Virus record (IMG/VR): IMGVR_UViG_2061766007_000009
DNA length: 64,000 bases
DNA from: a virus
Lineage: Duplodnaviria; Caudoviricetes
Direction: 5' to 3' (one strand)
The position numbers were made by a program, and so were the translations under genes. Each line of letters opens with the position of its first letter. Position 1 is the stretch's first letter. The notes under the pieces were generated by a model. It did not search any database and had not been told where the DNA came from. It saw only the letters and a program-made list of their open reading frames with translations. Below, piece after piece: positions 3,438-62,395 of this stretch.

Positions 3438-6400
3438 TTATGGATTGACTGGTTGAGAAGGATTCAGAGTACCTCCAGTTGTGGTTCCAGTGAATTCCGT
3501 TGCCCCAGTGTGTTGTGTCGCCCCAGTAATGTCAATGTCGGGGGTCTCTGGTTCATAGACCATATTAGAGACTGGATAATAATCACCACAGTCCACCACA
3601 CCATTTGCATCACCTATTTGAGCAGTCACGACATTACCAGTTGTAACATCAAATGTTATAGTCTCTGAACTTTGGAATGTTACAACACCCGAAAGTGGGG
3701 TATAGATTTTGTTGCTCGAGTTTTCGAACACTGTCTTAAGGTAGATACCGTTAGCCATCTGGTGAGCACTATCACCCTCACTATCTGTGCCATTACGGAC
3801 AGAAACTACTGTTACACCACTGACGTGGATATCAGTTCCTCCGCCACCACCTGTGGATATCTGCACCATATTACTTCCACTCCATCTCCAGAGAGTGTTG
3901 TCGCTGACACGACAATAAACAACGTTTTCACTAGGAGATTCTGTGAATACGTTTTCATGGTGCAAATATGTCTCAATCTGACGAGTGTCAGTATTGAACA
4001 CCGTCCCAGAATCTGGTACACTGCTAGAACCAACCCACTGCAATACAAGTTTTTGCTCTTCACCAGTAGCAAGACTGCCCACTTTGTTCAAATGAGCAAA
4101 ATTACCACTTGAAATTGCACTACTGATTGCACTGTTAGCATAGTTCTTTGCGGATGTAATTGCTTCATCCTTTGCGGTAGTAATTGCACTAGTGACTCCA
4201 CTCAGACGGAAACCTCCACTCTCAAGTTTTAGGTAAGGTTCACTATGAATGGAAATATTACCTCTGAATGTAACTCCGTCTTGCTCAAGTGTGACACCGC
4301 TTGCGCCAGAATAATTTCCACCAGTCTGTGCGGTCAGCGAGACAACATTATTGGTAATATCAATACCAGTGCCAGCAGATAAAATGTCCTGCTTGCCCTC
4401 AACCGCTCCACTGAGTGCCCTTACTTGCGTATCAACTTCATTAACTTTATCACTCAAAGTCCGAATAGGCGTACCATCAACAAGCAAATAGAGAGACCCT
4501 CCGTGTCCGGCTACTGTTTGTAATATATTATCGCCACCTTGATAAATGTTCACATCCACACCAACACTCTGATTGCCATCGGGTGTTGTACCTGTTACTA
4601 CAGTTGCGGCACGACCACTATTATCGGGCACCACTGGTTTAAAGAAGTCGGAAACTGGTATAGACACTTCTTCTACACTGGTACCAGACTCTGTAGTAAC
4701 CTCATACACAATTACCAAGGAGTTTGCGGAAGAGTCATAAGTAATACCGCTAATTAAAGACCCACCCATAAGATGGATTGGGAATGGGTCATGGACACCA
4801 TTATTGAATAATAGGGTGTTTGTGGTTTCATCATAATCCAATTCAACAGTTGCAAATAAACCCTCATCTGTTTTCTGAATGATGTTATGGGCATCGGGGT
4901 TATTGTTGACGTCGATGTAAATTGTATTTACAACTGGATTAGGGTCATCCTCATCTACCCACACATCAATAGCACTACCCCCAGAAGTATATAGATGTGC
5001 ACCATAAACTAAACCATTCACAGTGCCAACCTTATCAAATGCTATCTCTATAGCATCACTGAGTGCATTATCATTAGCAATTCTTTGGTTGACTTCAGTA
5101 GTAAGTGCCGATTGAGACGCTATACCCGAGGTTGATAGTGTATATACTGTTCCAGAGTCGGACGAATCTTCCTCTTTTTGAAGATATACTTCTTCTTCAG
5201 GAACTTCAATAGTCACCTTATTGCGGTTAATCATATCCTCAAGTTCGTCCTCTCTGTCTCTCGCACGGTTCTCCTCCGCTTCGATTGCTTGGGCGTTTAC
5301 GGTATCAGCACTCTCTCTTGCGGCAGTTTCTTCCGAGATGAGTTGTGCAAGTCTACCCTCTTCGGCTCTTGCACGACTTTCTTCCGCTTCGATTGCTTGA
5401 GCATTTACGGTGTCAGCACTCTCTCTTGCGGCAGTTTCTTCCGAGATAAGTTGTGCAAGTCTACCCTCTTCGGCTCTTGCACGGCTCTCTTCCGCTTCGA
5501 TTGCTTGAGCATTTACGGTATCAGCACTCTCTCTTGCGGCAGTTTCTTCCGAGATGAGTTGTGCAAGTCTACCCTCTTCGGCTCTTGCACGGCTCTCTTC
5601 CGCTTCGATTGCTTGAGTGTTTACAGTGTCGGCACTCTCTCTTGTCTCAGCCTCTTCCGAGATGAGTTGTGCAAGTCTACCCTCTTCGGCTCTTGCACGG
5701 TTCTCCTCCGCTTCGATTGCTTGGGCGTTTACGGTATCAGCACTCTCTCTTGCGGCAGTTTCTTCCGAGATGAGTTGTGCAAGTCTACCCTCTTCGGCTC
5801 TTGCACGGCTCTCTTCCGCTTCGATTGCTTGAGTGTTTACAGTGTCGGCACTCTCTCTTGCAGCAGTTTCTTCCGAAATGAGTTGAGCAAGTCTACCCTC
5901 TTCGGTTCTCGCACGACTCTCCTCCGCTTCGATTGCTTGAGCATTTACGGTGTCGGCACTCTCTCTTGCGGCAGTTTCTTCCGAGATGAGTTGAGCAAGT
6001 CTACTCTCTTCGGCTCTCGCACGATTCTCTTCCGCTTCGATTGCCTGGGCGTTTACGGTATCACCACTTTGCCTTGCATTTATTTCGGCATTCAAATCGG
6101 TCCTTAATACAGAGTCAGCATTCTCCCTTGCGACAGTCTCTGCCGAGATGAGTCCACGCAACTCATTGTCGGCGTTCTCTCTTGCGACAATCTCCGCTTG
6201 AATAGCATTACTCAAGCCAGAATCAATTCTCTCCCTTTCATTAATTTCCGCCACAATAGCATTACGCAACTCAGTATCAGCCTGGGTTCTCGCATTAGTC
6301 TCTGCTACGAGAGCATTTTGTAATGCATTATCAGCATTCTCTCTTGCGGCGATTTCAGCGGCCAAATCAACGCTCATTGTGTCAAGTGCATCTTTAACTG

Positions 6401-7694
6401 TTCCGTTACCATATGCTATGTTTTCGGCAACACCGTTTACTGACAAACCGTGGAACCCAGCATTATGGAATTCTTGAAGAATATTGTGTGGAACAAGTGA
6501 TAATGGTGCAACATTCACATTACCTTTTAGACTGGTATAACCTTGTACACTTCTATCTTTTACCAGTGTAACTGTAGAGTTTGAATTGTCGGTATACCAT
6601 TCCTCAAACAAGTCGCTAATTGGGATTCTAACCTCTTGCCTTTGCCCATCTGTTGTATGATAGATAAGAACAAGTTCCTCTTTTGTTCTATCATAGTAGA
6701 TGTGGTCAAGGACGCTTGCGCTGTTCAGTTGAATCTCGGTTACCTTAGAAATCTCATCCTTGTCAGATTTAGTAAACACCAATGTGTTTGTCAAAGCGTT
6801 GTAGGTAAGGTTCACAGATGCAAAGAGACCACCAACAGAACGAATGATATTAGTCTCATTAGCACTTTCAAAGTTTGATACCACACCACCAGACGAAACG
6901 ACAGACTGGAGATTTGATTTTTCACCACCTGGCAGCCAGCAAACAATATTGCTTGCCTTGAACTCATTGAAAATTTCTTGTAAATTGATATAAACCTTGT
7001 TGTTGTTATTCAATGTAAGGACAATGGATTTCATTGCATTGTCATAGACACCGCTCTTCACGGTATCTTCAAGGTCAATCTCCTTGACTTGGTCATTGAT
7101 GGTCATTTTAAACTTGTTGGTCCCAAGAGTGTGTGCAATGTCAACGTAGACGTAGAGACCGTCATCACCAACTTGCAATGTATTTGTCAAGATGTTACCA
7201 CCCATCATAATGGTTCTTGGGACTCTCACATCAGCAGTCAGACCACTTTCGCCGCGTCTGTTTGCAAGTGTAAGGTCAACTGTTTTTGTATTGGATACGG
7301 TCAAAGACATGGCTTTTATGTGTGACGCCAGTTCTTCAATAGCATCCTCAACGTTGCTGCTTCCAGATATAATTTCGCCAGAAAATGGTTTAAGATTTCC
7401 ATTCTCGTCGAATCCACAAGAACTAACAACATTTGCCAGAATAGTTTTTATTCTTCTTATATCCGCCACATCAGCATCCTGGTCGATAAAGAACACCCCG
7501 GTTCCATCTTCCTTCGTACCTATACCGATAATTGCACTCAAGTCATCTGTTTGACCGTACACAAGGACGAGTGGCTCGCCTATGGCAAGCCTCAAACTAC
7601 CGTCTCCTATGAGATTCAAAACATATCCCTTCGCCTCTTCAACAGTCTGAAAAGGTGAAGAATGATGCAAGAATTGTAATTTGTTTGTGTTCAT
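3438..7694 (-). CDS. Long fibre/adhesin protein with central repeated coiled-coil shaft
   Basis: 1418 aa; beta-rich YD/YN..LxL modules, 36-aa AIEAEESRARAEEGRLAQLISEETAARESADTVNAQ repeats, N-terminal LQFL..GEPLVLVY and near-C-terminal VDCGDY shared with other fibres. Confidence 0.75.
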   Translation of the reverse strand: MNTNKLQFLHHSSPFQTVEEAKGYVLNLIGDGSLRLAIGEPLVLVYGQTDDLSAIIGIGTKEDGTGVFFIDQDADVADIRRIKTILANVVSSCGFDENGNLKPFSGEIISGSSNVEDAIEELASHIKAMSLTVSNTKTVDLTLANRRGESGLTADVRVPRTIMMGGNILTNTLQVGDDGLYVYVDIAHTLGTNKFKMTINDQVKEIDLEDTVKSGVYDNAMKSIVLTLNNNNKVYINLQEIFNEFKASNIVCWLPGGEKSNLQSVVSSGGVVSNFESANETNIIRSVGGLFASVNLTYNALTNTLVFTKSDKDEISKVTEIQLNSASVLDHIYYDRTKEELVLIYHTTDGQRQEVRIPISDLFEEWYTDNSNSTVTLVKDRSVQGYTSLKGNVNVAPLSLVPHNILQEFHNAGFHGLSVNGVAENIAYGNGTVKDALDTMSVDLAAEIAARENADNALQNALVAETNARTQADTELRNAIVAEINERERIDSGLSNAIQAEIVARENADNELRGLISAETVARENADSVLRTDLNAEINARQSGDTVNAQAIEAEENRARAEESRLAQLISEETAARESADTVNAQAIEAEESRARTEEGRLAQLISEETAARESADTVNTQAIEAEESRARAEEGRLAQLISEETAARESADTVNAQAIEAEENRARAEEGRLAQLISEEAETRESADTVNTQAIEAEESRARAEEGRLAQLISEETAARESADTVNAQAIEAEESRARAEEGRLAQLISEETAARESADTVNAQAIEAEESRARAEEGRLAQLISEETAARESADTVNAQAIEAEENRARDREDELEDMINRNKVTIEVPEEEVYLQKEEDSSDSGTVYTLSTSGIASQSALTTEVNQRIANDNALSDAIEIAFDKVGTVNGLVYGAHLYTSGGSAIDVWVDEDDPNPVVNTIYIDVNNNPDAHNIIQKTDEGLFATVELDYDETTNTLLFNNGVHDPFPIHLMGGSLISGITYDSSANSLVIVYEVTTESGTSVEEVSIPVSDFFKPVVPDNSGRAATVVTGTTPDGNQSVGVDVNIYQGGDNILQTVAGHGGSLYLLVDGTPIRTLSDKVNEVDTQVRALSGAVEGKQDILSAGTGIDITNNVVSLTAQTGGNYSGASGVTLEQDGVTFRGNISIHSEPYLKLESGGFRLSGVTSAITTAKDEAITSAKNYANSAISSAISSGNFAHLNKVGSLATGEEQKLVLQWVGSSSVPDSGTVFNTDTRQIETYLHHENVFTESPSENVVYCRVSDNTLWRWSGSNMVQISTGGGGGTDIHVSGVTVVSVRNGTDSEGDSAHQMANGIYLKTVFENSSNKIYTPLSGVVTFQSSETITFDVTTGNVVTAQIGDANGVVDCGDYYPVSNMVYEPETPDIDITGATQHTGATEFTGTTTGGTLNPSQPVNP
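5262..6063. repeat. 108-bp tandem repeat, about 7.5 copies, coding coiled coil
   Basis: TCGATTGC recurs at 5281, 5389, 5497, 5605, 5713, 5821, 5929, 6037 (period 108). Confidence 0.95.
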
Positions 7695-12221: not shown

Positions 12222-12623
12222 ATGGCAGAACAAAGCACAATTATTGATGGCCAAACCTGTCTTGAGCAGAGAGGTATGGAAGAACGTCACGTTGAGATTG
12301 CTAGAAGTGATTACAACATTGAGGACCAATACTCAGCAGCACACAAAGACGCGATGAGTGATGGCGACCCACAAGGTAAGGGCACCGGACACGGAGGTCA
12401 CACTGCTTTCCTCCCAGACTGTACCAAACCAGTTGGTCAAATCAACTACAGCAATTTTGATACCGCAAAAGGTGGTGGGTATTATGACATCAACGGTCGC
12501 AACGATATTGGTGGACGCTTGAAATCAATGGCCGCTTCGCTTTACAACGAGAACAACCAGTATGGTCTTGATTTGATTAACACCGAAGCAAACATAGCAG
12601 ACGGACAGACATTTGTATCATAA
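12222..12623 (+). CDS. Hypothetical late protein
   Basis: Clean ORF after TATTTAT at 12181; stop overlaps next start (TAATG). Confidence 0.65.
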   Translation: MAEQSTIIDGQTCLEQRGMEERHVEIARSDYNIEDQYSAAHKDAMSDGDPQGKGTGHGGHTAFLPDCTKPVGQINYSNFDTAKGGGYYDINGRNDIGGRLKSMAASLYNENNQYGLDLINTEANIADGQTFVS

Positions 12624-13609
12624 TGAGAAGGGCGTCTGACATATTCAAGAGACTGCTTCGAGAGTCAATGTACACCTATGGGAGTCCAGACCCCCAAACG
12701 GTGGCAGACGCTATTGCCAACAAGAACTATGTCCGAATCAGATATGATGACGAGGACTATGGTTCACGAATTGGCACAAAGAAGAATTCTCGTCTTATTA
12801 TGCCCGTTGCACTTGGCACCTCAAAGGCTGGGAATCCAGTCCTAAGAGCATTCCAGATAAACGGAGGCACAAGAAGAGGCATACCAAAGTGGAAACTTTT
12901 CAGACTTGATAGAATCAAGAACTGGGCAACAATGACCAATAAGCAGTTCCACCAGACACCAGATGAACTTGGATTTGACAATGCATTCCCCTTCAACAAA
13001 TATGGAGATAAAAGTATGAGAGGCGTTAACAAAATTGCCGATTTCTCGGATATAGACAATATGTCTCCGCTTGAAAGAGTACGTATGTTTGGTATGGATA
13101 GACTCAACGGTCCAGCCATTACCGCAAGAGGGCTTGACTCAATCCCAGACATGAGACAAAGAAGAAGAATGTCAGCATCTGGAATGTCAAGGGATGACAT
13201 TATGAGAAACATAGAAATATCCAAAGGCGAAGAGAGTGCGTTCGACGTTTGGGATAAGGCAGCCGCTGAAGCATCTAACGACAACAGCGGAGCAAGAGAC
13301 ACCGAGATGGTCAGGCGTCTTGGTCGTAGTGACAATACCAGAGGGTCTATCGGCGGTGAAGACTTTGAGGACCACAACGCCGATGAAAACGAATACTCTA
13401 AATTCTTCAACGGCGAAGAGTTGTCAGACGAGGAAGTGGAGGCTCGCACCAAAGTCAACGATTTTGGTGATGAATACTACGAAGATGAAGTCCCAGACGA
13501 GATGTCAGGCGACAACGACATATCAAACAACAATGATATGCCAAACGATAACGACTTTGATGAAGATGATTTTTTCGCCAAAGACGAAGATGGAGATAAT
13601 TTTAAATAA
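12623..13609 (+). CDS. WYL-domain protein with acidic C-terminal tail
   Basis: AIANKNYVRIRY..RLIMPVALG..LRAFQ..WKLFRLDRIKNW matches the WYL pattern; no HTH seen. Confidence 0.8.
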   Translation: MRRASDIFKRLLRESMYTYGSPDPQTVADAIANKNYVRIRYDDEDYGSRIGTKKNSRLIMPVALGTSKAGNPVLRAFQINGGTRRGIPKWKLFRLDRIKNWATMTNKQFHQTPDELGFDNAFPFNKYGDKSMRGVNKIADFSDIDNMSPLERVRMFGMDRLNGPAITARGLDSIPDMRQRRRMSASGMSRDDIMRNIEISKGEESAFDVWDKAAAEASNDNSGARDTEMVRRLGRSDNTRGSIGGEDFEDHNADENEYSKFFNGEELSDEEVEARTKVNDFGDEYYEDEVPDEMSGDNDISNNNDMPNDNDFDEDDFFAKDEDGDNFK

Positions 13610-13627
13610 AAAAAAATAGTTACGACA

Positions 13628-35456: not shown

Positions 35457-35591
35457 ATAACATATCTTCACTTATCTAATATAAATATTTGCTAAAGTCT
35501 CATTTTTAATAGCGTTGGAACACAAGCAGATAAAAAAATACGCCCACCAAAGGGCGGGCGTACCTTTCTTTTATCGAAAAACTCTTTTGTA

Positions 35592-43402: not shown

Positions 43403-45433
43403 TTAAGATTGATATTCGTCCGTTTCGTGAGCGATTTGCCCAAGAAGGTCAGTAACATTCATAAATTGGTTTTCAACCCACATCCATACAGTACCGTCAT
43501 CACGTACCTCGAGAGCATTCTTTCTGTTTCGTGGGTCATCACCGATACCTACCGAGAATACTGTATTCGATGTTGCAGTGGCGGCGGTTCGTGTGCCGTC
43601 ATTAAAGGTTTCTCCATTTTGTAGTGAAAGGTTATACGAACCAATTGCAACCTCATTCTCGTTTCTCGCACTAAGTGTATCATTGGTGCGAATTGAACCT
43701 TCTCCGAAACCCTTATCCCACAACGAGTCGGCATCAACGTCAACCTTAAGGTCGTATGTGTTAGTTTCTGAGTCATAGGTTATGGTAACACTGCTGTCGC
43801 TTGACTCAATATGTGTAACCCCACTTCCAGTTGGACCATTGTGAACAAGCCACCAAACCTCATCGAACACACCACCGTCGTGCTGACTTTGAGGTGGGTT
43901 GTAAGTGTATCCACTTTCGGTCTTCTCAATACGAGGAGTAAGAACCTGGAGTCTTGTCAGAATGTCAGCATCACCTACAGTTCGAGCCTCAGCCTCTTCG
44001 TCAATCATTGTGAATGCACTTTGAATGTTGGCATTCATCAAATCAAGACTATCGGCGACTGCTCCCGAATACACATTAAATTCCGACTGATTCACCTTAC
44101 CGTCGAGTGCCTCAATAACGGTGTCCACACTTGCGGAAATTGCACTAACACTACCCTCAAGATTGCCGAGCCTCTCGTGTGCTTCTGTGGCTAGGGCGGT
44201 GATGGCACTTGTGTTTTCTTCAACCTTCTCACTCAAATCACCAATATTGGCCTCATTTTGTTCAACCTTTCCGCTTAATTCATTAATTCTCGCTGAATTA
44301 TTTTCTGCCATTGTTTTGGCAGACTCTGCAAGAGTGAGTGCTGAATCAGCAGTCGCCGAGACTGTTTGAAGGTCTGCTGAGACTGTTTGAAGGTTTGCCG
44401 AGACTGTTTGAAGGTCTGCGTTGCTCGCCACACCGCTTGTGGAGAGGATGTAGTTAACGCCGCCAGATACATTGGTTCCAGTCTGTACATCGAGGAATCG
44501 CTCGCCACGTGCCTTTGAGACTGTAACTGTCGCAGCGGACAAAGCCCCATCCACATAACTTTTATTTGCTTTACCAGCAAGGAGGTTATCGACTTCTTCC
44601 TTGGTGTAGTAATTAGAAAGGTCAATCTCTTCTGGGAGAGGACCAAGTTCTTCCCACGCATTAGCCACCCAAATATACTCAATGAACTGGTTTGTTCCAC
44701 CAGTTTGTTCTTGGGGAACAAGATAAATGATGTTTGGTCTGGGGTCTGTTACATCTTCAAGACTTAGGACGATTTCGTACAATTTGGGGCTTGGTGTGCT
44801 TGCTGTTACCGAAATAACATTATCAGCAATCAAAATACCGTCTCCAGCAGTCAATTTGTCTTGTTTGCCTTCGAGGGCTTCCTCCACTCCAGTAATTGCG
44901 CTTTCCACACTTTCAGTAGTAGCGTATCCACTAAGATTGATACCGAGACCGTCGTCAGTAAGTGTCAGTGCATCATTGTTATTCTCATCAAGTTTGATTG
45001 AGATTTTATTGTCATCACCAATCAAAATGCCTTGTCCTTGCTTATATAATGTCACAAGGTCCTCAACATCGATTGCAAGTTCGTATGACTCCCCAATAAC
45101 AGGAGTGATGTTCAATTTTATCTCTTTGGCTTCACTGTCATAGGAACCACCGTTTATTGATTTAATAAGAGGGTATTCCACAGAAGCAATTTCAGCGTTT
45201 CCGTGGGCTACGTCAGTAAGTTTAAGGAGATTTCGTTTTTGTCCGTCGTTTGAAGGTACAACTTCTAATCCGAGTTTGGCAAGAAGCCCCTTGTCTGTGA
45301 TTGTAATGATATTCTTCGAGTCGCTGTCAACTTTGACATCAGCCTTGCAAGAATTGGTAATAATCACAGTTTCGTGGGTAAGTTTCTTCTGCTCATTGTA
45401 GAAGCCGTATCCATAGAATCCATGTATTTTCAT
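43403..45433 (-). CDS. Fibre protein with coiled-coil shaft and YadA-neck-like C-terminus
   Basis: KQDKLTAGDGI, IIYLVP..EYIWV..WEELG..IDLSNYYTK, LQTVSA heptads, FSVGIG..RKNALEV..DG. Confidence 0.7.
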   Translation of the reverse strand: MKIHGFYGYGFYNEQKKLTHETVIITNSCKADVKVDSDSKNIITITDKGLLAKLGLEVVPSNDGQKRNLLKLTDVAHGNAEIASVEYPLIKSINGGSYDSEAKEIKLNITPVIGESYELAIDVEDLVTLYKQGQGILIGDDNKISIKLDENNNDALTLTDDGLGINLSGYATTESVESAITGVEEALEGKQDKLTAGDGILIADNVISVTASTPSPKLYEIVLSLEDVTDPRPNIIYLVPQEQTGGTNQFIEYIWVANAWEELGPLPEEIDLSNYYTKEEVDNLLAGKANKSYVDGALSAATVTVSKARGERFLDVQTGTNVSGGVNYILSTSGVASNADLQTVSANLQTVSADLQTVSATADSALTLAESAKTMAENNSARINELSGKVEQNEANIGDLSEKVEENTSAITALATEAHERLGNLEGSVSAISASVDTVIEALDGKVNQSEFNVYSGAVADSLDLMNANIQSAFTMIDEEAEARTVGDADILTRLQVLTPRIEKTESGYTYNPPQSQHDGGVFDEVWWLVHNGPTGSGVTHIESSDSSVTITYDSETNTYDLKVDVDADSLWDKGFGEGSIRTNDTLSARNENEVAIGSYNLSLQNGETFNDGTRTAATATSNTVFSVGIGDDPRNRKNALEVRDDGTVWMWVENQFMNVTDLLGQIAHETDEYQS

Positions 45434-45583: not shown

Positions 45584-45615
45584 TTTGTTACTTTCAAAAA
45601 AAAATTATAATTTTG
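45584..45615 (+). promoter_or_regulatory. Bacteroidota sigma-A type promoter TTTG-N20-TAATTTTG
   Basis: Exact -33/-7 consensus 22 nt upstream of ATG 45638. Confidence 0.75.
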
Positions 45616-45950: not shown

Positions 45951-47990
45951 TTATCTGAATTCACTGATTGGCCAGTGAACAAGACCGTCAACGCGTACGT
46001 GACCATAGTAGCGGTTGTTAACAACCTTCTTTGCATAACGGGTCATGATACCCTTAACTGGTGCAAAGTTGAATGGGTTGTAGATAGTTGGAGTCAACTG
46101 CATAGGTACGTATGGTGCGTAGATGTAACCAGTGTCGAGCAGTGATTTACCCTTGTGACCGATGATGATGCTCCAGTGTGGGCTATATGGGTCACGATAA
46201 ACCTGATAGCGGTTATTCAGAGCACCAATCTTCTCGATACCCATATTGTACTGGTCGCTCTCAGCACTTGCGTCTGATACGTGGAAGTACTCAAGGTTGT
46301 CGAAGAGGGCAGAGATTTCAGAAGACACAACGATGAAGTTTGCACCACCGCGGAGTGTCGACTTGTGAATCTGAGCACTAATCTGGTTAATCTTAGTCAT
46401 AAGTTCTTGGTTCCAGTCTTTCTGGGTGTAGTTGGTCGAGAAGGCGGCCATACGACGCCATCCGTTAACATCCCAACGTGCTTGCCAAGGAGCAACCTTA
46501 CGGAGGTCGCGGAGAATCTCACGGTCAATCTCAGCAGCGATTTGCTCAGAAAGGATGGCGGTGAGTTCAGCCTCAGCGTCGATGTTATGGAATGCAGATA
46601 CGTCTTGTGCCAATTCTGGTGACCAAGTAGCACGCAGTTTGCGTTCCTCTACAGAAACGGTAACTGAATCCAACTTGAACGATACTTCACCAATCTCGGT
46701 TTCGAGTTCGAGGCTGTCGTACTGAGCCCAAGCAATCTTGAAGGCTTCTTGTGCGGTGCCCGAAATCTGCTCGGCGTCAACACCAATGTAACCGTCGATG
46801 GTCTTACCTTGCTCGATGGTTGGTTTGGCGAGGTCGAGTTCGATGTAGATTTTGCCTTGTGCGTCGCAGATATTGCCATATTCAACAATACCCTTGCCGT
46901 ACTTCTGGGTAACAACGCGGAAAGGAATTGCCTCATACTTCATGAACGAAGTAGTGGTAGTTGCGCTGTCAGCACCAATCTTAGAGGCTGGAATAGCGTT
47001 CTTAGTGATAACCTTCAAAGAAGCAAGGAATGCCTCGGTATCCATCTCGTTACCATCAGGGCCAGTAAGTTTACCAGCGTTGAAGGCAGAGAAACCGTCT
47101 ACAGCGAGGATGATGTTACGCAGAGTGCCGTCGAAACCGCTCTTTGCGTATTCGCTCATCTCACCTTCGAATTCCTTCATACCAGCAGGGGTCAGAACAA
47201 CAGGAGCGGCATTGCCAACCTTGATTGTAACTTTACCCTTGCTATTGTCATACAAGAAGTCGTTGTAGAACAAGTCATACAAACTCTTCTCGAAGTACTG
47301 GGTTACCTCTGGACCAACCTTGCGGATGGCAGTGTAAGGCAGACCGAGTGCGTCGGCTTTCTCTTGGGCGTCCTTGTAGGTATCGAATGTGTTTTCGAAT
47401 GTATCGGTACCACCGCTAGCAAGTTTAGCCTCAACGTTTTCACCAGCACTACCCAGTTCTGGGAAGTACCAAGCGTTCTGAAGGTCGTTTACAACCTCAT
47501 CGGGGAGGTAGTAGCGAGGTTCAACACGTCCATCCTTATTTCTGTTCTGACGGTCATAGCCCATAAGACCTTTATGACGGCCAGTAGTACCGTCGACGAT
47601 GTCGCCGGCTTCTGGAGTCTCGCCAGAGAAGCCCTCTGGGAGTGCCCATTCACGCTCACTGGTAACTGGCAGAATGAAGAACAACTTTCCAACTGGAAGG
47701 TTCATTGCCTGTACCGATACGATGTCGTTAGCAAGAAGTTTGCTGAATACACGACGAATAATTGGGAATACTACGGTCTCGAAAGCACCAGAGTTATCAG
47801 CAGCAGTTGCCTCATAGATAAGGTGTTTTGCTTCGTTCTCATACAGAGTTGCCACGTTTTCCTTAATGGCACCTTGCAGACCCTCGGTGAAACCGAGGTT
47901 ATCCCAACGGTTCTGTATTTTTTCGCGGATTCTCTTTTGCTCGTTCAGTTCGATATTACCGACTTGCCCGCTTGATAAAAATTCTCTCAT
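45951..47990 (-). CDS. Major capsid protein (T4 gp23-like) with large insertion
   Basis: FPIIRRVF..LANDIVSVQAMNLPVG; RKLRATWSPELAQD..DAEAELTAILSEQIAAEIDREIL; GYIYAPYVP; GIMTRYA. Confidence 0.95.
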   Translation of the reverse strand: MREFLSSGQVGNIELNEQKRIREKIQNRWDNLGFTEGLQGAIKENVATLYENEAKHLIYEATAADNSGAFETVVFPIIRRVFSKLLANDIVSVQAMNLPVGKLFFILPVTSEREWALPEGFSGETPEAGDIVDGTTGRHKGLMGYDRQNRNKDGRVEPRYYLPDEVVNDLQNAWYFPELGSAGENVEAKLASGGTDTFENTFDTYKDAQEKADALGLPYTAIRKVGPEVTQYFEKSLYDLFYNDFLYDNSKGKVTIKVGNAAPVVLTPAGMKEFEGEMSEYAKSGFDGTLRNIILAVDGFSAFNAGKLTGPDGNEMDTEAFLASLKVITKNAIPASKIGADSATTTTSFMKYEAIPFRVVTQKYGKGIVEYGNICDAQGKIYIELDLAKPTIEQGKTIDGYIGVDAEQISGTAQEAFKIAWAQYDSLELETEIGEVSFKLDSVTVSVEERKLRATWSPELAQDVSAFHNIDAEAELTAILSEQIAAEIDREILRDLRKVAPWQARWDVNGWRRMAAFSTNYTQKDWNQELMTKINQISAQIHKSTLRGGANFIVVSSEISALFDNLEYFHVSDASAESDQYNMGIEKIGALNNRYQVYRDPYSPHWSIIIGHKGKSLLDTGYIYAPYVPMQLTPTIYNPFNFAPVKGIMTRYAKKVVNNRYYGHVRVDGLVHWPISEFR

Positions 47991-50113: not shown

Positions 50114-50824
50114 TCAAAGTAGACCTTTGATTTTACTTATTTTCTCATTAAGACTGTTTTTGTGTGAAGTTGTCTGGTCGCTTTCAATGTATGGTCGCAA
50201 CTCCTCTTGACTTCCGCCCAGCCATGCATTTGGAGTACTTGGGTCGGACACAAGGTCCCAGCATATCAATTCGAAGTCATCCCCCACAATATATTGACCG
50301 AGTTTCTGTTCAACACTTCCCACGCCACGTGATGAAACACCAATCTTGTATCCGTTCAAGAGGAGGTTAGCGGCGGTGTCTCCAAGTGTGGAGCAGATTC
50401 CACTACGTCTGTAACCCTCACTGATGTTGAGTTCCATTTTCCCAACAAGGGTGTGACCCTCCCAGTGAAGTTCAATTATGTTGTGGGAAATCCTACCAAG
50501 GTCGATTGTTGATTCGCTTGGGTGATTGCATTCCCCATATGCTCTATGCTCATCAATCTTCTGCTGGTATTCCGCCACTTGTCTCTTGAGTACGTTCTCT
50601 GGATATATTCTTCCGTTTGCGTTTTTGATGTCGAACTTTTGGAACACTGCGTCAACAATGAAGGGGTTTGGAACTCTCCACCCGTCGCCATTGTTGTAAG
50701 CCTCGTATATCTTCTTATTATTCGGTGTGTCTGAAAGACAGATGTGTCCGTCATTCTCAATAAGAAGACCAGTTCCAGTTGTATTTTTCTTTATCTCTTT
50801 TAATTCAGTTCTTTCAGAATTCAT
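50114..50824 (-). CDS. Prohead core protease (T4 gp21-like)
   Basis: NANGRIYP, GECNHP, SHNI, IGVSSRGVGS, WDLVSDPSTPNAW. Confidence 0.93.
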   Translation of the reverse strand: MNSERTELKEIKKNTTGTGLLIENDGHICLSDTPNNKKIYEAYNNGDGWRVPNPFIVDAVFQKFDIKNANGRIYPENVLKRQVAEYQQKIDEHRAYGECNHPSESTIDLGRISHNIIELHWEGHTLVGKMELNISEGYRRSGICSTLGDTAANLLLNGYKIGVSSRGVGSVEQKLGQYIVGDDFELICWDLVSDPSTPNAWLGGSQEELRPYIESDQTTSHKNSLNEKISKIKGLL

Positions 50825-59986: not shown

Positions 59987-60062
59987 ATGTGTACACTTTT
60001 ATTATATAAATACCCATAAGCAACAAAAAAACGAGCACCTTTCAGTACTCGTTTATCTTGTG

Positions 60063-60779
60063 TTAGAAATCACTAACAAATGGGTTTGTGCGTTTGACTT
60101 TCTTGTTCGTTATCTTTCGCTCTGGGCGTTTTGTATGCCGTTCTTTATCTCCAAGCAATTCCCCAACAATTTCGTTGATTACATCATCATACGATTCCAT
60201 AACTGGTCTCGGATTTTTGTGAGCCATCATCGGTTGTGGGGCTGGTGCTGGTGCTGGTGCTGGTGGCATTCCGCCACCCATCGGAGGCATTCCGCCACCC
60301 ATAGGAGGCATTCCGCCGTCCATACCCATATTTGGGTCGACATTTCCAGCCTTGTTCAGTGCCTTAACAACATCCTTCTTGTCGTTTGCGTCAAGCGTAT
60401 CTCCAAGGGCACTCGCAAGCATATTCAATGCCCACTTTGCGTCTGGTGAGGAGAAGGGGTCCATCTGGTCTGCTTTTGCTTGACTTGCGAGTTGTGAAAT
60501 CTCGCCAGTCTTCTTGTAGATTGATTGCTTCGGCGTTCCTTCATCTTCTTCACCGCCCATCATCGAAGGGTCTGGTGCTGGCATTGGGGGCTGTGGTGCA
60601 CCGCCCATCATCGAAGGGTCTGGTGCTGGCATTGGAGGCTGTGGTGCGACACCCATCATCGAAGGGTCTGGTGCTGGCATTGGAGGTTGTGGCAGTGCCG
60701 CCTCGTTAAATAAACGGACGGAAGGGTTCGGACCGAAGCCAAACCCTCCCGTCTTATGAAAATTTCTATTTTCGTTTAT
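60063..60779 (-). CDS. Pro/Met/Gly-rich ORF, probably the -1 frameshift extension of 60776..62299
   Basis: Frame is open 33 codons upstream of ATG 60680, back into the 10-A run. Confidence 0.65.
   Translation of the reverse strand: MNENRNFHKTGGFGFGPNPSVRLFNEAALPQPPMPAPDPSMMGVAPQPPMPAPDPSMMGGAPQPPMPAPDPSMMGGEEDEGTPKQSIYKKTGEISQLASQAKADQMDPFSSPDAKWALNMLASALGDTLDANDKKDVVKALNKAGNVDPNMGMDGGMPPMGGGMPPMGGGMPPAPAPAPAPQPMMAHKNPRPVMESYDDVINEIVGELLGDKERHTKRPERKITNKKVKRTNPFVSDF
60556..60692. repeat. 48-bp coding repeat x3 (PQPPMPAPDPSMMG..)
   Basis: CCCATCATCGAAGGGTCTGGTGCTGGCATTGG at 60556, 60604, 60652. Confidence 0.9.
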
Positions 60780-60788
60780 TTTTTTTTT
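60717..60788 (-). promoter_or_regulatory. Candidate -1 frameshift cassette: A10 slippery run, TAA, 15-bp hairpin
   Basis: TTA AAA AAA AAA TAA then GACGGGAGGGTTTGG-CTTCGGT-CCGAACCCTTCCGTC. Confidence 0.6.
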
Positions 60789-62299
60789 AAGTTCCTGATG
60801 ATTGATTCTGCAATTGCATTCTCAAGTTCATCTGGGTCTACGAGGAATGGTGCACCGTCACCGATTTGCTCGCCGTAAGGCTGTTCGCTGTAAACCGACT
60901 CATCATTCATATCGTAGTAACCTGGGAACTCATTGTAGCGTGTAGATGGTAATGACATAACCCTCTTCTGCCAAGCAGGATGCTTCCCGAAGTAGTCAAG
61001 TCTATCCTCATTCAACATACGACGAAAATCTCTTGATTCATACACACGACCTTCGTTTGTTTGGTTGTACAAATCACTATCATTGAAATCATCACCGTTT
61101 GCATTGCCCATCATACCTGGGTTGCCCATAGGAGGCATACCGCCGCCGATAGGAGGCATTCCACCACCCATAGGGGGCATTCCGCCGCCGATAGGTGGCA
61201 TTCCACCACCCATAGGAGGCATTCCGCCGCCCATAGGAGGCATATCACCCATCATATCATCTTGCATACCACCGTTATCGGGAACGCCAAGCACAGATGC
61301 GATACGCTGGAGAGTATCCTCCATATCATCAATCTTATTGATAAGACCGCCCTCGCTGTCAATGTTTGCGTCCATATCGGTAATAGCCTCATTTACACGC
61401 TTTGTGAATGGGTCGCCGTAACCTATGTCGTTTGTACCTGGAGTTGGTTCATACTGGTCCCAGAATTGTCTGTGAAGGGCTTTTTTGCCTTTACCTCTAC
61501 CTTCTCCAACAACACCGTTACGCATTCTCTTACGATTGGTGAAACGTGGCTCGGTGAATGGGTTGTTAGGACCAATTTCGGTTCCGTGACTGTCATCAAT
61601 ATAATCGTAGTCGTCGTTCCAACCTAGAACCTCACTGTCACTACGTCCCTCGAACATATCATCTGGAAGGTCGGCCTTTTTCCAAGCCTTGTCCTTCTTG
61701 AAGCCATGTCCCTTGCGGACTCCATCCTTATACTCATTGCGACCGATGTTATCACGCATCTTGTCGATGTTCATATCATCGCAACGACAAACTTCACCAT
61801 CTTTACAGAATGGGTCACCACAGCAACCACACTCTTGTTTCTTGTTCTCATTGATGCGACCCACGTTGTACATAATCTGACGTTCGCGAGCAATTTCACG
61901 CTTCATCTGGTTGGTCGACTCAACCGTCAGTTGACGCCTCTTGTCGGGGTTCCAAGATTCCACCATAATCTTCTTGCCAGCGGCATTAGCCTCTTTCAGA
62001 GAAGCCATCTTAAGGTCAAATTGCTTAAGGGCATTGGCATAACTAGAGTATTCGTTGTTCTTACGATTAACGAATCCACCAATATAGTCAAAGTTCTCTT
62101 TAATTGGCTTTACGTTCTGGGGTGCTGATTTGATATAATACTTGGTACCTTCACGGACGATTCCGTAAAGTTTGCCGTCAGCGCCGACACGTGAATATTC
62201 GACATCTGAGAATGGGGTATTTTTCTTACCTTCACTCAAGCCGTAAGACATCATTTCCTTGATACGACCGAGTTCTTTTTTCACATTCTTTTTGCTCAT
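60776..62299 (-). CDS. Putative head-core protein with GGMPPM repeats
   Basis: ELGRIKEMMSY, YGIVREGTKYYIK..YIGG..YSSYA.ALK; repeated IG...PF units; many (I/L/V)xE sites; ends LKKK. Confidence 0.75.
   Translation of the reverse strand: MSKKNVKKELGRIKEMMSYGLSEGKKNTPFSDVEYSRVGADGKLYGIVREGTKYYIKSAPQNVKPIKENFDYIGGFVNRKNNEYSSYANALKQFDLKMASLKEANAAGKKIMVESWNPDKRRQLTVESTNQMKREIARERQIMYNVGRINENKKQECGCCGDPFCKDGEVCRCDDMNIDKMRDNIGRNEYKDGVRKGHGFKKDKAWKKADLPDDMFEGRSDSEVLGWNDDYDYIDDSHGTEIGPNNPFTEPRFTNRKRMRNGVVGEGRGKGKKALHRQFWDQYEPTPGTNDIGYGDPFTKRVNEAITDMDANIDSEGGLINKIDDMEDTLQRIASVLGVPDNGGMQDDMMGDMPPMGGGMPPMGGGMPPIGGGMPPMGGGMPPIGGGMPPMGNPGMMGNANGDDFNDSDLYNQTNEGRVYESRDFRRMLNEDRLDYFGKHPAWQKRVMSLPSTRYNEFPGYYDMNDESVYSEQPYGEQIGDGAPFLVDPDELENAIAESIIRNLKKK
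61126..61245. repeat. 21-bp coding repeat (GGMPP[MI]G) x5-6
   Basis: ATAGGAGGCAT(T/A)CC(G/A)CC units; the same unit recurs at about 60262-60320. Confidence 0.85.
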
Positions 62300-62395
62300 A
62301 TTAAAATATTTTAATTTAGTCTTATTCTTTTTAGAATCAGGTTTATTTTACAATAAATAGATTACACAAGAAAAAAATATTCATTTTTATTCTCA

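What the first reader, a model, noticed from the sequence alone, without database searches (positions are those of the whole stretch)
60063..62299. Probable -1 programmed frameshift (A10 run + stop + 15-bp hairpin) making long and short forms of a head-region protein
Seen: on the minus strand the 507-aa ORF ends AAC TTA AAA AAA AAA TAA (10 A's, 60788-60779). The -1 frame is open from there for 33 codons (INENRNFHKTGGFGFGPNPSVRLFNEAALPQPP) straight into the 205-aa ORF. The 48-bp repeat of the downstream ORF starts upstream of its first ATG (PQPP at 60692-60681), and that ATG lacks the AT-rich leader other genes here have. Both ORFs carry the same GGMPPMG repeat, and the bridge has INE/FNE sites like other head proteins. 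A 15-bp stem (60753-60717) lies 25 nt after the run and is followed by CGUUUAUUU. Known: phage frameshifts are typical of tail chaperones and some capsid/tail proteins. Inference: a fixed ratio of a 507-aa form and a roughly 745-aa form. The 25-nt spacer is longer than for classic stimulators, so the hairpin may instead be a terminator that only shifted ribosomes suppress. Transcriptional slippage on A10 is another possible route.
Basis: partly seen in the sequence, partly recalled or inferred. Interest (0 to 1): 0.85.

Follow-up and report, generated by a model that had tools for sequence, protein, structure and literature searches.

The report
Conserved frameshift site joining two phage genes
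A run of ten A's at the end of a 507-residue gene in a T4-like giant phage is a conserved slip site that most likely makes a minor 745-residue fusion with the next gene; it is a new, well-supported example of a known trick, found across this phage family.

Summary
Comparison with relatives shows it is a selected recoding site, not an error.

- **Conservation.** In 72 distinct homologous junctions from metagenomic jumbo-phage contigs, the downstream ORF is never in frame. It always opens exactly at a slip site at the end of the upstream ORF.
- **Site types.** A9 (33), A10 (29), A11 (2), A7 (4) and A_AAT_TTY (4). G_GGT_TTT occurs in two further loci.
- **Frame.** 55 junctions need a -1 shift and 17, all A10, need +1/-2.
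- **Translation through the junction.** Conserved peptides lie before any ATG, with third-codon-position variation directly after the run.
- **Breadth.** About 1,000 50%-identity clusters belong to the family, and nearly all full-length proteins inspected end in a K-run. One fused ORF (A11) was found.
- **Mechanism.** Unresolved. Long runs at the 9-nt threshold and the +1 lineages favour RNA-polymerase slippage for A9-A11 sites, including this window. The heptamer lineages show that ribosomal -1 frameshifting is also used in the family.
- **Hairpin.** The 15-bp hairpin is real, is the most stable local 46-nt fold in the window, and shows pair-preserving changes. It is a clade-specific 51-nt insertion, not a conserved stimulator, and is probably a terminator or attenuator.
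- **Protein function.** Unknown; possibly a protease-processed head-core component.

The parts
60776..62299 (-). Upstream ORF, 507 aa (short form). It has a conserved N-terminal domain (about 1-150), an acidic or low-complexity middle, three IGDxAPF-like motifs, and a conserved C-terminal domain ending LKKK.
   Evidence: There are 1017 cluster representatives in the family. No Pfam, PHROG, PDB or BFVD function was found.
60779..60788 (-). A10 slip site. The 0 frame reads TTA AAA AAA AAA, which contains the heptamer A_AAA_AAA next to the stop.
   Evidence: It is the longest homopolymer in the window. Homologous loci carry A7-A11, A_AAT_TTY or G_GGT_TTT at the same position.
60776..60778 (-). 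0-frame stop TAA, directly after the run.
   Evidence: In all -1 class loci the 0-frame stop lies 0-10 nt after the run.
60063..60788 (-). Shifted (-1) frame ORF: 241 codons plus stop, open from the run. The predicted long form is 507 + 238 = 745 aa.
   Evidence: Family alignment A3.
60681..60779 (-). Bridge of 33 codons between the K-run and the first ATG (INENRNFHKTGGFGFGPNPSVRLFNEAALPQPP). It carries INE and FNE (L/I-x-E-like) motifs.
   Evidence: A phi-x-E motif occurs within 14 residues of the run in 71 of 72 loci.
60717..60753 (-). 15-pair G+C-rich hairpin with a CUUCGG loop. It is a clade-specific insertion and probably a terminator/attenuator or RNA-stability element.
   Evidence: It is present in L091-L096 and absent in L010. 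L093 has four stem changes, all pair-preserving. No other copy exists in the window or in IMG/VR.
60707..60716 (-). CGTTTATTTA tail after the hairpin (an interrupted U tract). It can pair with the UAAACG that follows the run.
60551..60692 (-). 48-bp tandem repeat, 3 copies (PQPPMPAPDPSMMGGA), beginning upstream of the first ATG of the downstream ORF.
60029..60054 (-). Canonical terminator-like hairpin plus T7 after the downstream ORF. It is the likely end of the transcription unit.
62353..62359 (-). TATTTAT late-promoter-like motif about 55 nt upstream of the 507-aa ORF. The next copy lies at 60012-60006, and none precedes the downstream ORF.
Evidence: Read directly.

Best explanation
The A10 run is a conserved programmed recoding site.

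**Products.** Most expression ends at the UAA directly after the run and gives the 507-aa protein. A fraction of expression shifts by -1 at the run. That fraction continues through 33 bridge codons and the whole 205-aa ORF to give a 745-aa fusion, ...NLKKK-INENR...

**Two routes give the same product.**
- RNA polymerase adds one A while transcribing the run. I favour this route, at roughly 55%.
- The ribosome slips -1 on A_AAA_AAA next to the stop. I put this at roughly 35%.
- Both may contribute.

**Shown versus inferred.** Shown:
- the sequence features;
- their conservation across the family;
- the coding signature in the shifted frame.

Inferred:
- that the fusion is made;
- its ratio to the short form;
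- which polymerase slips.

**Hairpin.** It is a later, clade-specific addition. It most likely ends or stabilises the transcript for the short form.

**Protein role (weak inference).** The protein pair is probably a head-interior or prohead-core component. The fused extension may be released by the phage's T4 gp21-type protease at the conserved L/I/V-x-E motif just after the junction.
For: 1. All 72 distinct homologous junctions are out of frame and have a slip site at the ORF end. 55 need -1 and 17 need +1.
2. The shifted frame opens at the run. The conserved motifs phi-x-E (71/72) and PTKL or VLKVP (64/64) lie before the first ATG.
3. Pairwise differences by codon position directly after the run are 1.6, 1.3 and 7.3 in the A9/PTKL group.
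4. The top 120 homologues (473-572 aa, plus one 318-aa fragment) nearly all end LKKK(x) or GKK[FY]xR. Almost all complete-looking tails among the 149 representatives inspected end in a K-run or in ...GF.
5. The tree needs about 7 changes of frame configuration and about 19 changes of site type, yet only one locus is fused.
6. Seven independent assemblies of the window's clade all read A10.
7. For polymerase slippage:
   - run lengths cluster at 9-11, with none at 8, and 9 is the reported threshold for efficient slippage and the hybrid length (PMC5009743);
   - the +1 class is always A10, and a -1 ribosomal slip there gives a dead-end KKKI*.
8. For ribosomal slippage: lineages with A7, A_AAT_TTY plus stop, or G_GGT_TTT at the same position.
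9. No late-promoter-like motif lies between the two ORFs (note e1-5777602).
Against:
- No conserved stimulatory structure lies 5-9 nt after the site.
- The phi-x-E motif can partly be explained at the DNA level. NTA-ANT-GAR embeds TAA and TGA stops for the two unused frames, so it is not clean evidence for a protease site.
- GTG or TTG codons occur before the conserved motif in some loci, so occasional internal initiation cannot be excluded.
- The host and its tRNA-Lys and polymerase properties are unknown.
Confidence: 0.88

Rival explanations
1. The mechanism is mainly transcriptional slippage. The polymerase reiterates on the T10 template, giving A11 (and A12, A9...) mRNAs. Ordinary translation of the A11 mRNA yields the fusion.
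For: - Run lengths peak sharply at 9-10, with none at 8. This matches the 9-10 bp hybrid and the reported threshold of 9 (PMC5009743).
- 17 loci in +1 configuration, all A10, arose at least 5 times. They cannot use a -1 ribosomal slip.
- Lysine codons are AAG or absent in lineages that use other slip sites (L064, L097). The K-run is therefore there for the A-run, not for the protein.
- Both unused frames close quickly, as in Thermus dnaX.
Against: - No RNA data are available.
- Lineages without long runs prove that the ribosomal route works in this family.
- Nothing is known about slippage by the host polymerase.
Confidence: 0.5
2. The mechanism is mainly ribosomal -1 frameshifting on A_AAA_AAA, helped by the adjacent stop codon.
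For: - A canonical X_XXY_YYZ heptamer sits in the correct phase next to UAA.
- Homologues carry A_AAA_AAG, A_AAA_AAC, A7, A_AAT_TTY plus stop, and G_GGT_TTT (+/- stop) at the same place.
- A_AAA_AAG is the E. coli dnaX site (PMC5009743).
Against: - It does not explain the +1 lineages.
- It does not explain why runs are 9-10 rather than 7.
- There is no stimulator at the classical spacing: the hairpin is 25 nt away and clade-specific.
- A_AAA_AAA is less shift-prone than A_AAA_AAG in E. coli.
Confidence: 0.35
3. These are two ordinary, independently initiated genes, and the A-run and the open frame are incidental.
For: - Gene callers call the downstream ORF separately.
- An ATG exists at 60680.
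Against: - Conserved coding sequence lies upstream of every first ATG.
- In the relatives the corresponding ATG lies 5 codons earlier, where the window has CTG.
- The slip site is conserved at the same position in every distinct junction examined (72, two more).
- The 48-bp repeat starts before the ATG.
- The leader is G+C-rich and has no promoter-like motif.
Confidence: 0.05
4. This is a homopolymer sequencing or assembly error, or a recent pseudogene of a single 745-aa gene.
For: - One relative (L098, Logan SRR21898928) is a single fused ORF with A11.
- Homopolymers are error-prone.
Against: - Seven independent assemblies of the clade read A10.
- 72 of 72 junctions are out of frame, in two different configurations and with non-homopolymer sites.
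- The search with the extension against longer proteins found none, which is weak evidence.
- Of the listed representatives only one was fused.
Confidence: 0.02
5. This is DNA-level phase variation. Replication slippage creates A11 sub-populations that make only the fusion, and the mixture of genomes supplies both forms.
For: - A10 tracts mutate readily.
- The fused A11 variant L098 exists.
Against: - Every consensus but one is in the unfused state.
- Lineages with heptamer sites have no tract to vary.
- A lytic burst from one genome would lack one of the two forms.
Confidence: 0.04

Closest known systems
dnaX tau/gamma recoding (E. coli -1 frameshift at A_AAA_AAG; Thermus thermophilus transcriptional slippage at a 9-nt run)
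   Same: Homologous genes reach two products from one start. They use either a ribosomal heptamer or a polymerase slip on a run of 9 or more, with stops close by in the unused frames (PMC5009743).
   Different: - Here the standard product is the short form and the shift lengthens it.
- The gene is a phage head-module gene of unknown function.
- Both -1 and +1 configurations occur.
- No dnaX-type stem-loop or internal Shine-Dalgarno stimulator was seen.
Phage tail assembly chaperone G/GT frameshift (lambda and many tailed phages)
   Same: A conserved low-level shift near the 3' end of a phage morphogenesis gene makes a C-terminally extended minor form. The shift direction varies between phages and often has no stimulator (PMC5009743).
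   Different: - The gene lies upstream of the terminase in a T4-like head/packaging block, not between the tail tube and tape-measure genes.
- Only one of 36 extension sequences gave a weak, sub-threshold match to a tail-chaperone family (Phage_TAC_15, E 0.0057).
- The products are much larger (507 and 745 aa) and largely low-complexity.
Shigella spa13/mxiE and IS-element transcriptional slippage on A-runs
   Same: A run of A's within or at the end of an ORF yields a C-terminally extended product from slipped transcripts (PMC5009743).
   Different: This is a phage gene. It is conserved over about 1,000 sequence clusters, and heptamer sites substitute for the run in some lineages.
T4 prohead-core and internal proteins processed by gp21 (gp22, gp67, gp68, IPs, Alt)
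   Same: - The phage has T4-type portal, gp21-family protease and gp23-type capsid genes.
- The proteins are acidic and low-complexity, with conserved L/I/V-x-E motifs, the gp21 cleavage motif (PMC9026906).
   Different: - No sequence or fold similarity to any T4 core protein was found.
- Virion presence and cleavage are untested.
- T4 is not known to use frameshifting for these proteins (my own knowledge).

Membership tests
Programmed -1 ribosomal frameshift site | Slippery heptamer X_XXY_YYZ in the 0 frame | tested here: met
   A_AAA_AAA lies at the end of the ORF. Homologues have A_AAA_AAG/C, A_AAT_TTY or G_GGT_TTT in phase.
Programmed -1 ribosomal frameshift site | Overlapping -1 ORF that is open from the site and evolves as coding sequence | tested here: met
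   motifs lie before any ATG, and variation is concentrated at third codon positions.
Programmed -1 ribosomal frameshift site | Stimulatory hairpin or pseudoknot 5-9 nt downstream (common but not obligatory) | tested here: not met
   The main stem starts 25 nt after the run and is clade-specific. No conserved structure was found across 72 loci.
Programmed -1 ribosomal frameshift site | Trans-frame protein detected | not testable with these tools
   No proteomic data are available.
Programmed transcriptional slippage | Homopolymeric A/T run of about 9 or more in the template | tested here: met
   The window has A10. In the family, A9-A11 occur in 64 of 72 junctions and A8 in none. The threshold is taken from PMC5009743.
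Programmed transcriptional slippage | mRNA population heterogeneous in run length relative to the DNA | not testable with these tools
Programmed transcriptional slippage | Homologues tolerate either alternative frame for the extension | tested here: met
   17 +1 loci, all A10, arose at least 5 times on the tree.
Tail assembly chaperone (G/GT) frameshift | Position between the major tail and tape-measure genes, with chaperone-family similarity | tested here: not met
   The neighbours are an NTase-like gene, terminase, endolysin and portal. One of 36 extension sequences gave a weak, sub-threshold Phage_TAC_15 match (E 0.0057), and no other chaperone hit was found.
T4-type gp21-processed head-core/internal protein | gp21-family protease in the genome and L/I-x-E motifs at conserved positions | tested here: inconclusive
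   Peptidase_S77 lies at 50114-50824. phi-x-E follows the run in 71 of 72 loci, and a near-invariant E sits in the ...INE-I motif near the C-terminus. However, the first motif overlaps embedded stop codons.
T4-type gp21-processed head-core/internal protein | Presence in proheads or virions and cleavage after Glu | not testable with these tools
   There is no cultured relative in the phage records.
Intrinsic terminator (the hairpin) | G+C-rich stem-loop followed immediately by a U tract | tested here: inconclusive
   The stem is strong: 15 pairs, 9 of them G-C, and the best local 46-nt fold in the window. The tail is CG-UUUAUUU, weaker than the T7 tracts of the clear terminators at 60029 and 35525.

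The most novel reading that the evidence does not exclude
The hairpin 25 nt after the run is an attenuator read out by the recoding event itself.

- On unslipped expression the ribosome stops at UAA, the hairpin forms, and the transcript ends. This gives a short mRNA for the short protein.
- On slipped transcripts or shifted ribosomes, translation runs through the stem and suppresses termination. Only then is the downstream coding sequence transcribed.

An independent strong hairpin sits at the same distance in another lineage (L073, L074, L082), which hints that such coupling evolved more than once.
Probability: 0.1. Interest if true: 0.8.

Novelty: new member of a known kind. Interest (0 to 1): 0.6.

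Why it matters
- **Annotation.** It adds a large, previously unannotated recoding family: about 1,000 sequence clusters of uncultured 200-410 kb T4-like phages. The IMG/VR sample numbers look like rumen and gut metagenomes, but I did not check this. In these genomes two called genes are really one gene with two products, so their annotations should be corrected.
- **A natural evolutionary series.** The same junction uses classical heptamers, A7, and A9-A11 runs in both -1 and +1 configuration. This is a natural dataset for asking when phages use ribosomal versus polymerase slippage and how sites convert between the two.
- **Protein function.** It marks an abundant, uncharacterised head-module protein as needing a fixed minor extended form. 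That is a lead to its role in capsid assembly or in packaged cargo.

Tried and rejected
- **Whole genome.** None is held for this window.
- **Phage records.** Near-identity and protein searches of 50,697 phage records found nothing.
- **Function of the proteins.** Searches gave only sub-threshold matches or uncharacterised homologues:
  - Pfam and PHROGs;
  - PDB profile search;
  - ESM Atlas;
  - AlphaFold model of the N-terminal 160 aa (pLDDT 74) with Foldseek against PDB and BFVD.
- **Fused forms.** A search with the extension against longer proteins found none, which is weak evidence.
- **Conserved stimulatory structure.** I looked upstream and downstream of the slip site in 72 loci and found none. 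The small upstream hairpin in the L002 group is not general.
- **Mobile hairpin.** The idea that the hairpin is a mobile repeat was rejected: there is no second copy in the window or in IMG/VR.
- **Second recoding site.** The A9 run at 13608-13616 lies after a stop, and the next gene is in the same frame with two intervening stops, so it is not one.
- **Literature.** Searches found no description of this family.
Full report
**1. Observation**

- The minus-strand 507-aa ORF (62299..60776) ends AAC TTA AAA AAA AAA TAA, with the A10 run at 60788-60779.
- The -1 frame reads KKK INENRNFHKTGGFGFGPNPSVRLFNEAALPQPP, then the ATG at 60680, and continues to 60063.
- The 48-bp repeat (60551-60692, three copies) starts before that ATG. 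21-bp GGMPPMG-coding repeats occur in both ORFs.
- The hairpin at 60753-60717 has 15 pairs and is followed by CGTTTATTT. The region folds at -38.5 kcal/mol, z = -5.2.
- A10 is the longest homopolymer in the window.
- The hairpin is the most stable 46-nt local fold on either strand.

**2. Context**

- The neighbouring genes are a large terminase subunit, a GH108-like endolysin, a T4-type portal (PF07230), a gp21-family prohead protease (PF03420) and a gp23-type capsid protein (PF07068).
- Related contigs reach 412 kb.
- No phage record in the INPHARED collection matches at either DNA or protein level.
- The window therefore comes from an uncultured T4-like jumbo phage.

**3. Comparative test of the recoding idea**

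Loci came from two IMG/VR scans with the 507-aa protein and its family alignment, one scan with the 205-aa ORF, and exact-protein look-ups. After removing duplicates, the 97 sequences compared (the window and 96 of these loci) gave 72 distinct junctions.
- In none of the 72 is the downstream ORF in frame. In all of them it opens at a slip site at the very end of the upstream ORF.
- The slip sites are A9 (33), A10 (29), A11 (2), A7 (4) and A_AAT_TTY followed by a stop (4).
- Two more distant loci carry G_GGT_TTT, with or without an adjacent stop, and no homopolymer.
- Fifty-five junctions need a -1 shift. Seventeen, all with A10, need +1/-2.
- The family has 1017 representatives at 50% identity.
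- The top 120 homologues, and almost all complete-looking tails among the 149 representatives inspected, end in a K-run plus 0-3 residues or in ...GF.
- Only one fused ORF was seen: L098, with A11, which is exactly one A more than a typical A10/-1 site.
- A search with the extension against longer proteins found nothing, which is weak evidence.

**4. The shifted frame is translated from the slip site**

- A phi-x-E motif lies within 14 residues of the run in 71 of 72 loci.
- A second motif (RPTKL.IP or VLKVP) lies upstream of the first ATG in all 64 loci that have it.
- In eleven related loci, pairwise differences in the 20 codons after the run fall 1.6, 1.3 and 7.3 on codon positions 1, 2 and 3 of the shifted frame.
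- In the window's clade the ATG is not positionally conserved: the window has CTG where the relatives have ATG.
- A tree of the upstream protein needs about 7 changes of frame configuration and about 19 changes of site type.
- The out-of-frame arrangement is therefore kept by selection while the site itself turns over.
- This rules out sequencing error, a recent pseudogene and two unrelated genes. It also makes DNA-level phase variation unlikely as the main route.

**5. Mechanism**

A -1 ribosomal slip on A_AAA_AAA-UAA and the addition of one A by RNA polymerase both give the same product, ...NLKKKINENR....

For polymerase slippage:
- Run lengths cluster at 9-11 with none at 8. This matches the 9-10 bp hybrid and the reported efficiency threshold of nine (PMC5009743).
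- The +1 class is always A10, and a -1 ribosomal slip there gives KKKI-stop.
- Lineages that use other slip sites lack the AAA lysine run. L064 uses AAG AAG and L097 has no lysines.

For ribosomal frameshifting:
- Canonical heptamers without long runs sit at the same position in several lineages.
- The heptamer phase is correct throughout.

No conserved stimulatory structure was found on either side of the site. I put polymerase slippage at about 55% and ribosomal slippage at about 35% as the main route in this window. Both may act.

**6. The hairpin**

- It occurs only in the window's close clade, in six further assemblies.
- It corresponds to a 51-nt in-frame insertion relative to L010.
- In L093, four substitutions in the stem all preserve pairing while changing the encoded peptide. 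The RNA structure is therefore what is under selection.
- Other very stable perfect hairpins among the top folds in the window (for example at 35525, 63897 and 29797) carry the U tract of a terminator and lie between listed ORFs. This one has a weaker tail, CG-UUUAUUU.
- At 25 nt from the run it is unlikely to stimulate frameshifting. A terminator, attenuator or 3'-end stabiliser for the short-form message is the best guess.
- An unrelated strong hairpin at about 26 nt, without a U tract, occurs in the L073/L074/L082 lineage. It remains unexplained.

**7. Function of the proteins**

- No family, solved structure or annotated viral model matches.
- The family has these features:
  - a small N-terminal alpha/beta domain;
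  - an acidic low-complexity middle;
  - three IGDxAPF-like motifs;
  - a conserved C-terminal domain;
  - an extension with P/M/G-rich repeats, a short helical block, a near-invariant ...INE-I motif and a basic NPF-ending tail.
- The genome also encodes a gp21-type protease, whose known motif is L/I-x-E (PMC9026906).
- A protease-processed head-core or internal protein is therefore plausible. On that reading the minor fused form would carry the extension into the prohead.
- This is inference only. The junction motif also embeds stops for the unused frames.

**8. Comparison and novelty**

- The closest analogues are dnaX (alternative use of frameshifting and slippage), the tail-chaperone G/GT shift, and A-run slippage in Shigella and IS elements (PMC5009743).
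- This is a new, large member of that known kind, in a gene class where it has not been described in the literature searched.
- Earlier notes on this window ((I/L)xE tags and the TATTTAT late motif) are consistent with one promoter upstream of the 507-aa ORF and none before the downstream ORF.

Noticed in passing
L082:about 4045-4085 (also L073 and L074), some 26 nt after their A9 run: An independent, very stable hairpin (TGCCATCTCAGCCGG AAATC CCGGCTGAGATGGCA in L082; z = -7.2 for the 70 nt after the run) sits at nearly the same distance from the slip site as the window's hairpin. It has no U tract. Its function is unknown.
   Followed up: partly
L098:2880-2905 (Logan SRR21898928 contig, 29 kb): This is the only fused single ORF in the family (654 aa). 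The run is A11, where A10 would give the usual stop. It could be a real DNA variant, an assembly error or an RNA-derived contig; the library type could not be checked.
   Followed up: partly
window:60776-62299 (-) and 60063-60680 (-): A short motif of the type (I/V)G(D/x)xxPF recurs three times in the 507-aa protein (GTEIGPNNPF, DIGYGDPF, QIGDGAPF). The extension ends in ...TNPFVSDF. The motifs look like repeated short binding motifs separated by disordered acidic segments.
   Followed up: no
window:13608-13616 (+) and 45596-45604: These are the only other 9-nt A runs in the window. The first lies directly after the stop of the 328-aa ORF (12623..13609), and the next gene is in the same frame behind two stops. 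The second lies in the gap between the listed ORFs that end at 45433 and begin at 45951. Neither looks like a recoding site.
   Followed up: yes
window:5553-5598 and 5769-5814 (+): An identical 46-nt hairpin-forming sequence occurs twice, 216 nt apart, antisense to the 1418-aa ORF (3438..7694, minus strand).
   Followed up: no
L013, L016, L060, L085 (contigs of 409-413 kb): Family members sit on contigs of up to about 412 kb that carry the same gene neighbourhood. They form a large clade of uncultured T4-like jumbo phages with no relative in the 50,697 phage records searched.
   Followed up: partly
window:60802-60825 (-): The conserved ENAIAES coding sequence forms a near-palindrome (TGCAATTGCA) just upstream of the slip site in many loci. 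It gave no significant fold (z about -1) and is probably a by-product of the conserved peptide.
   Followed up: partly
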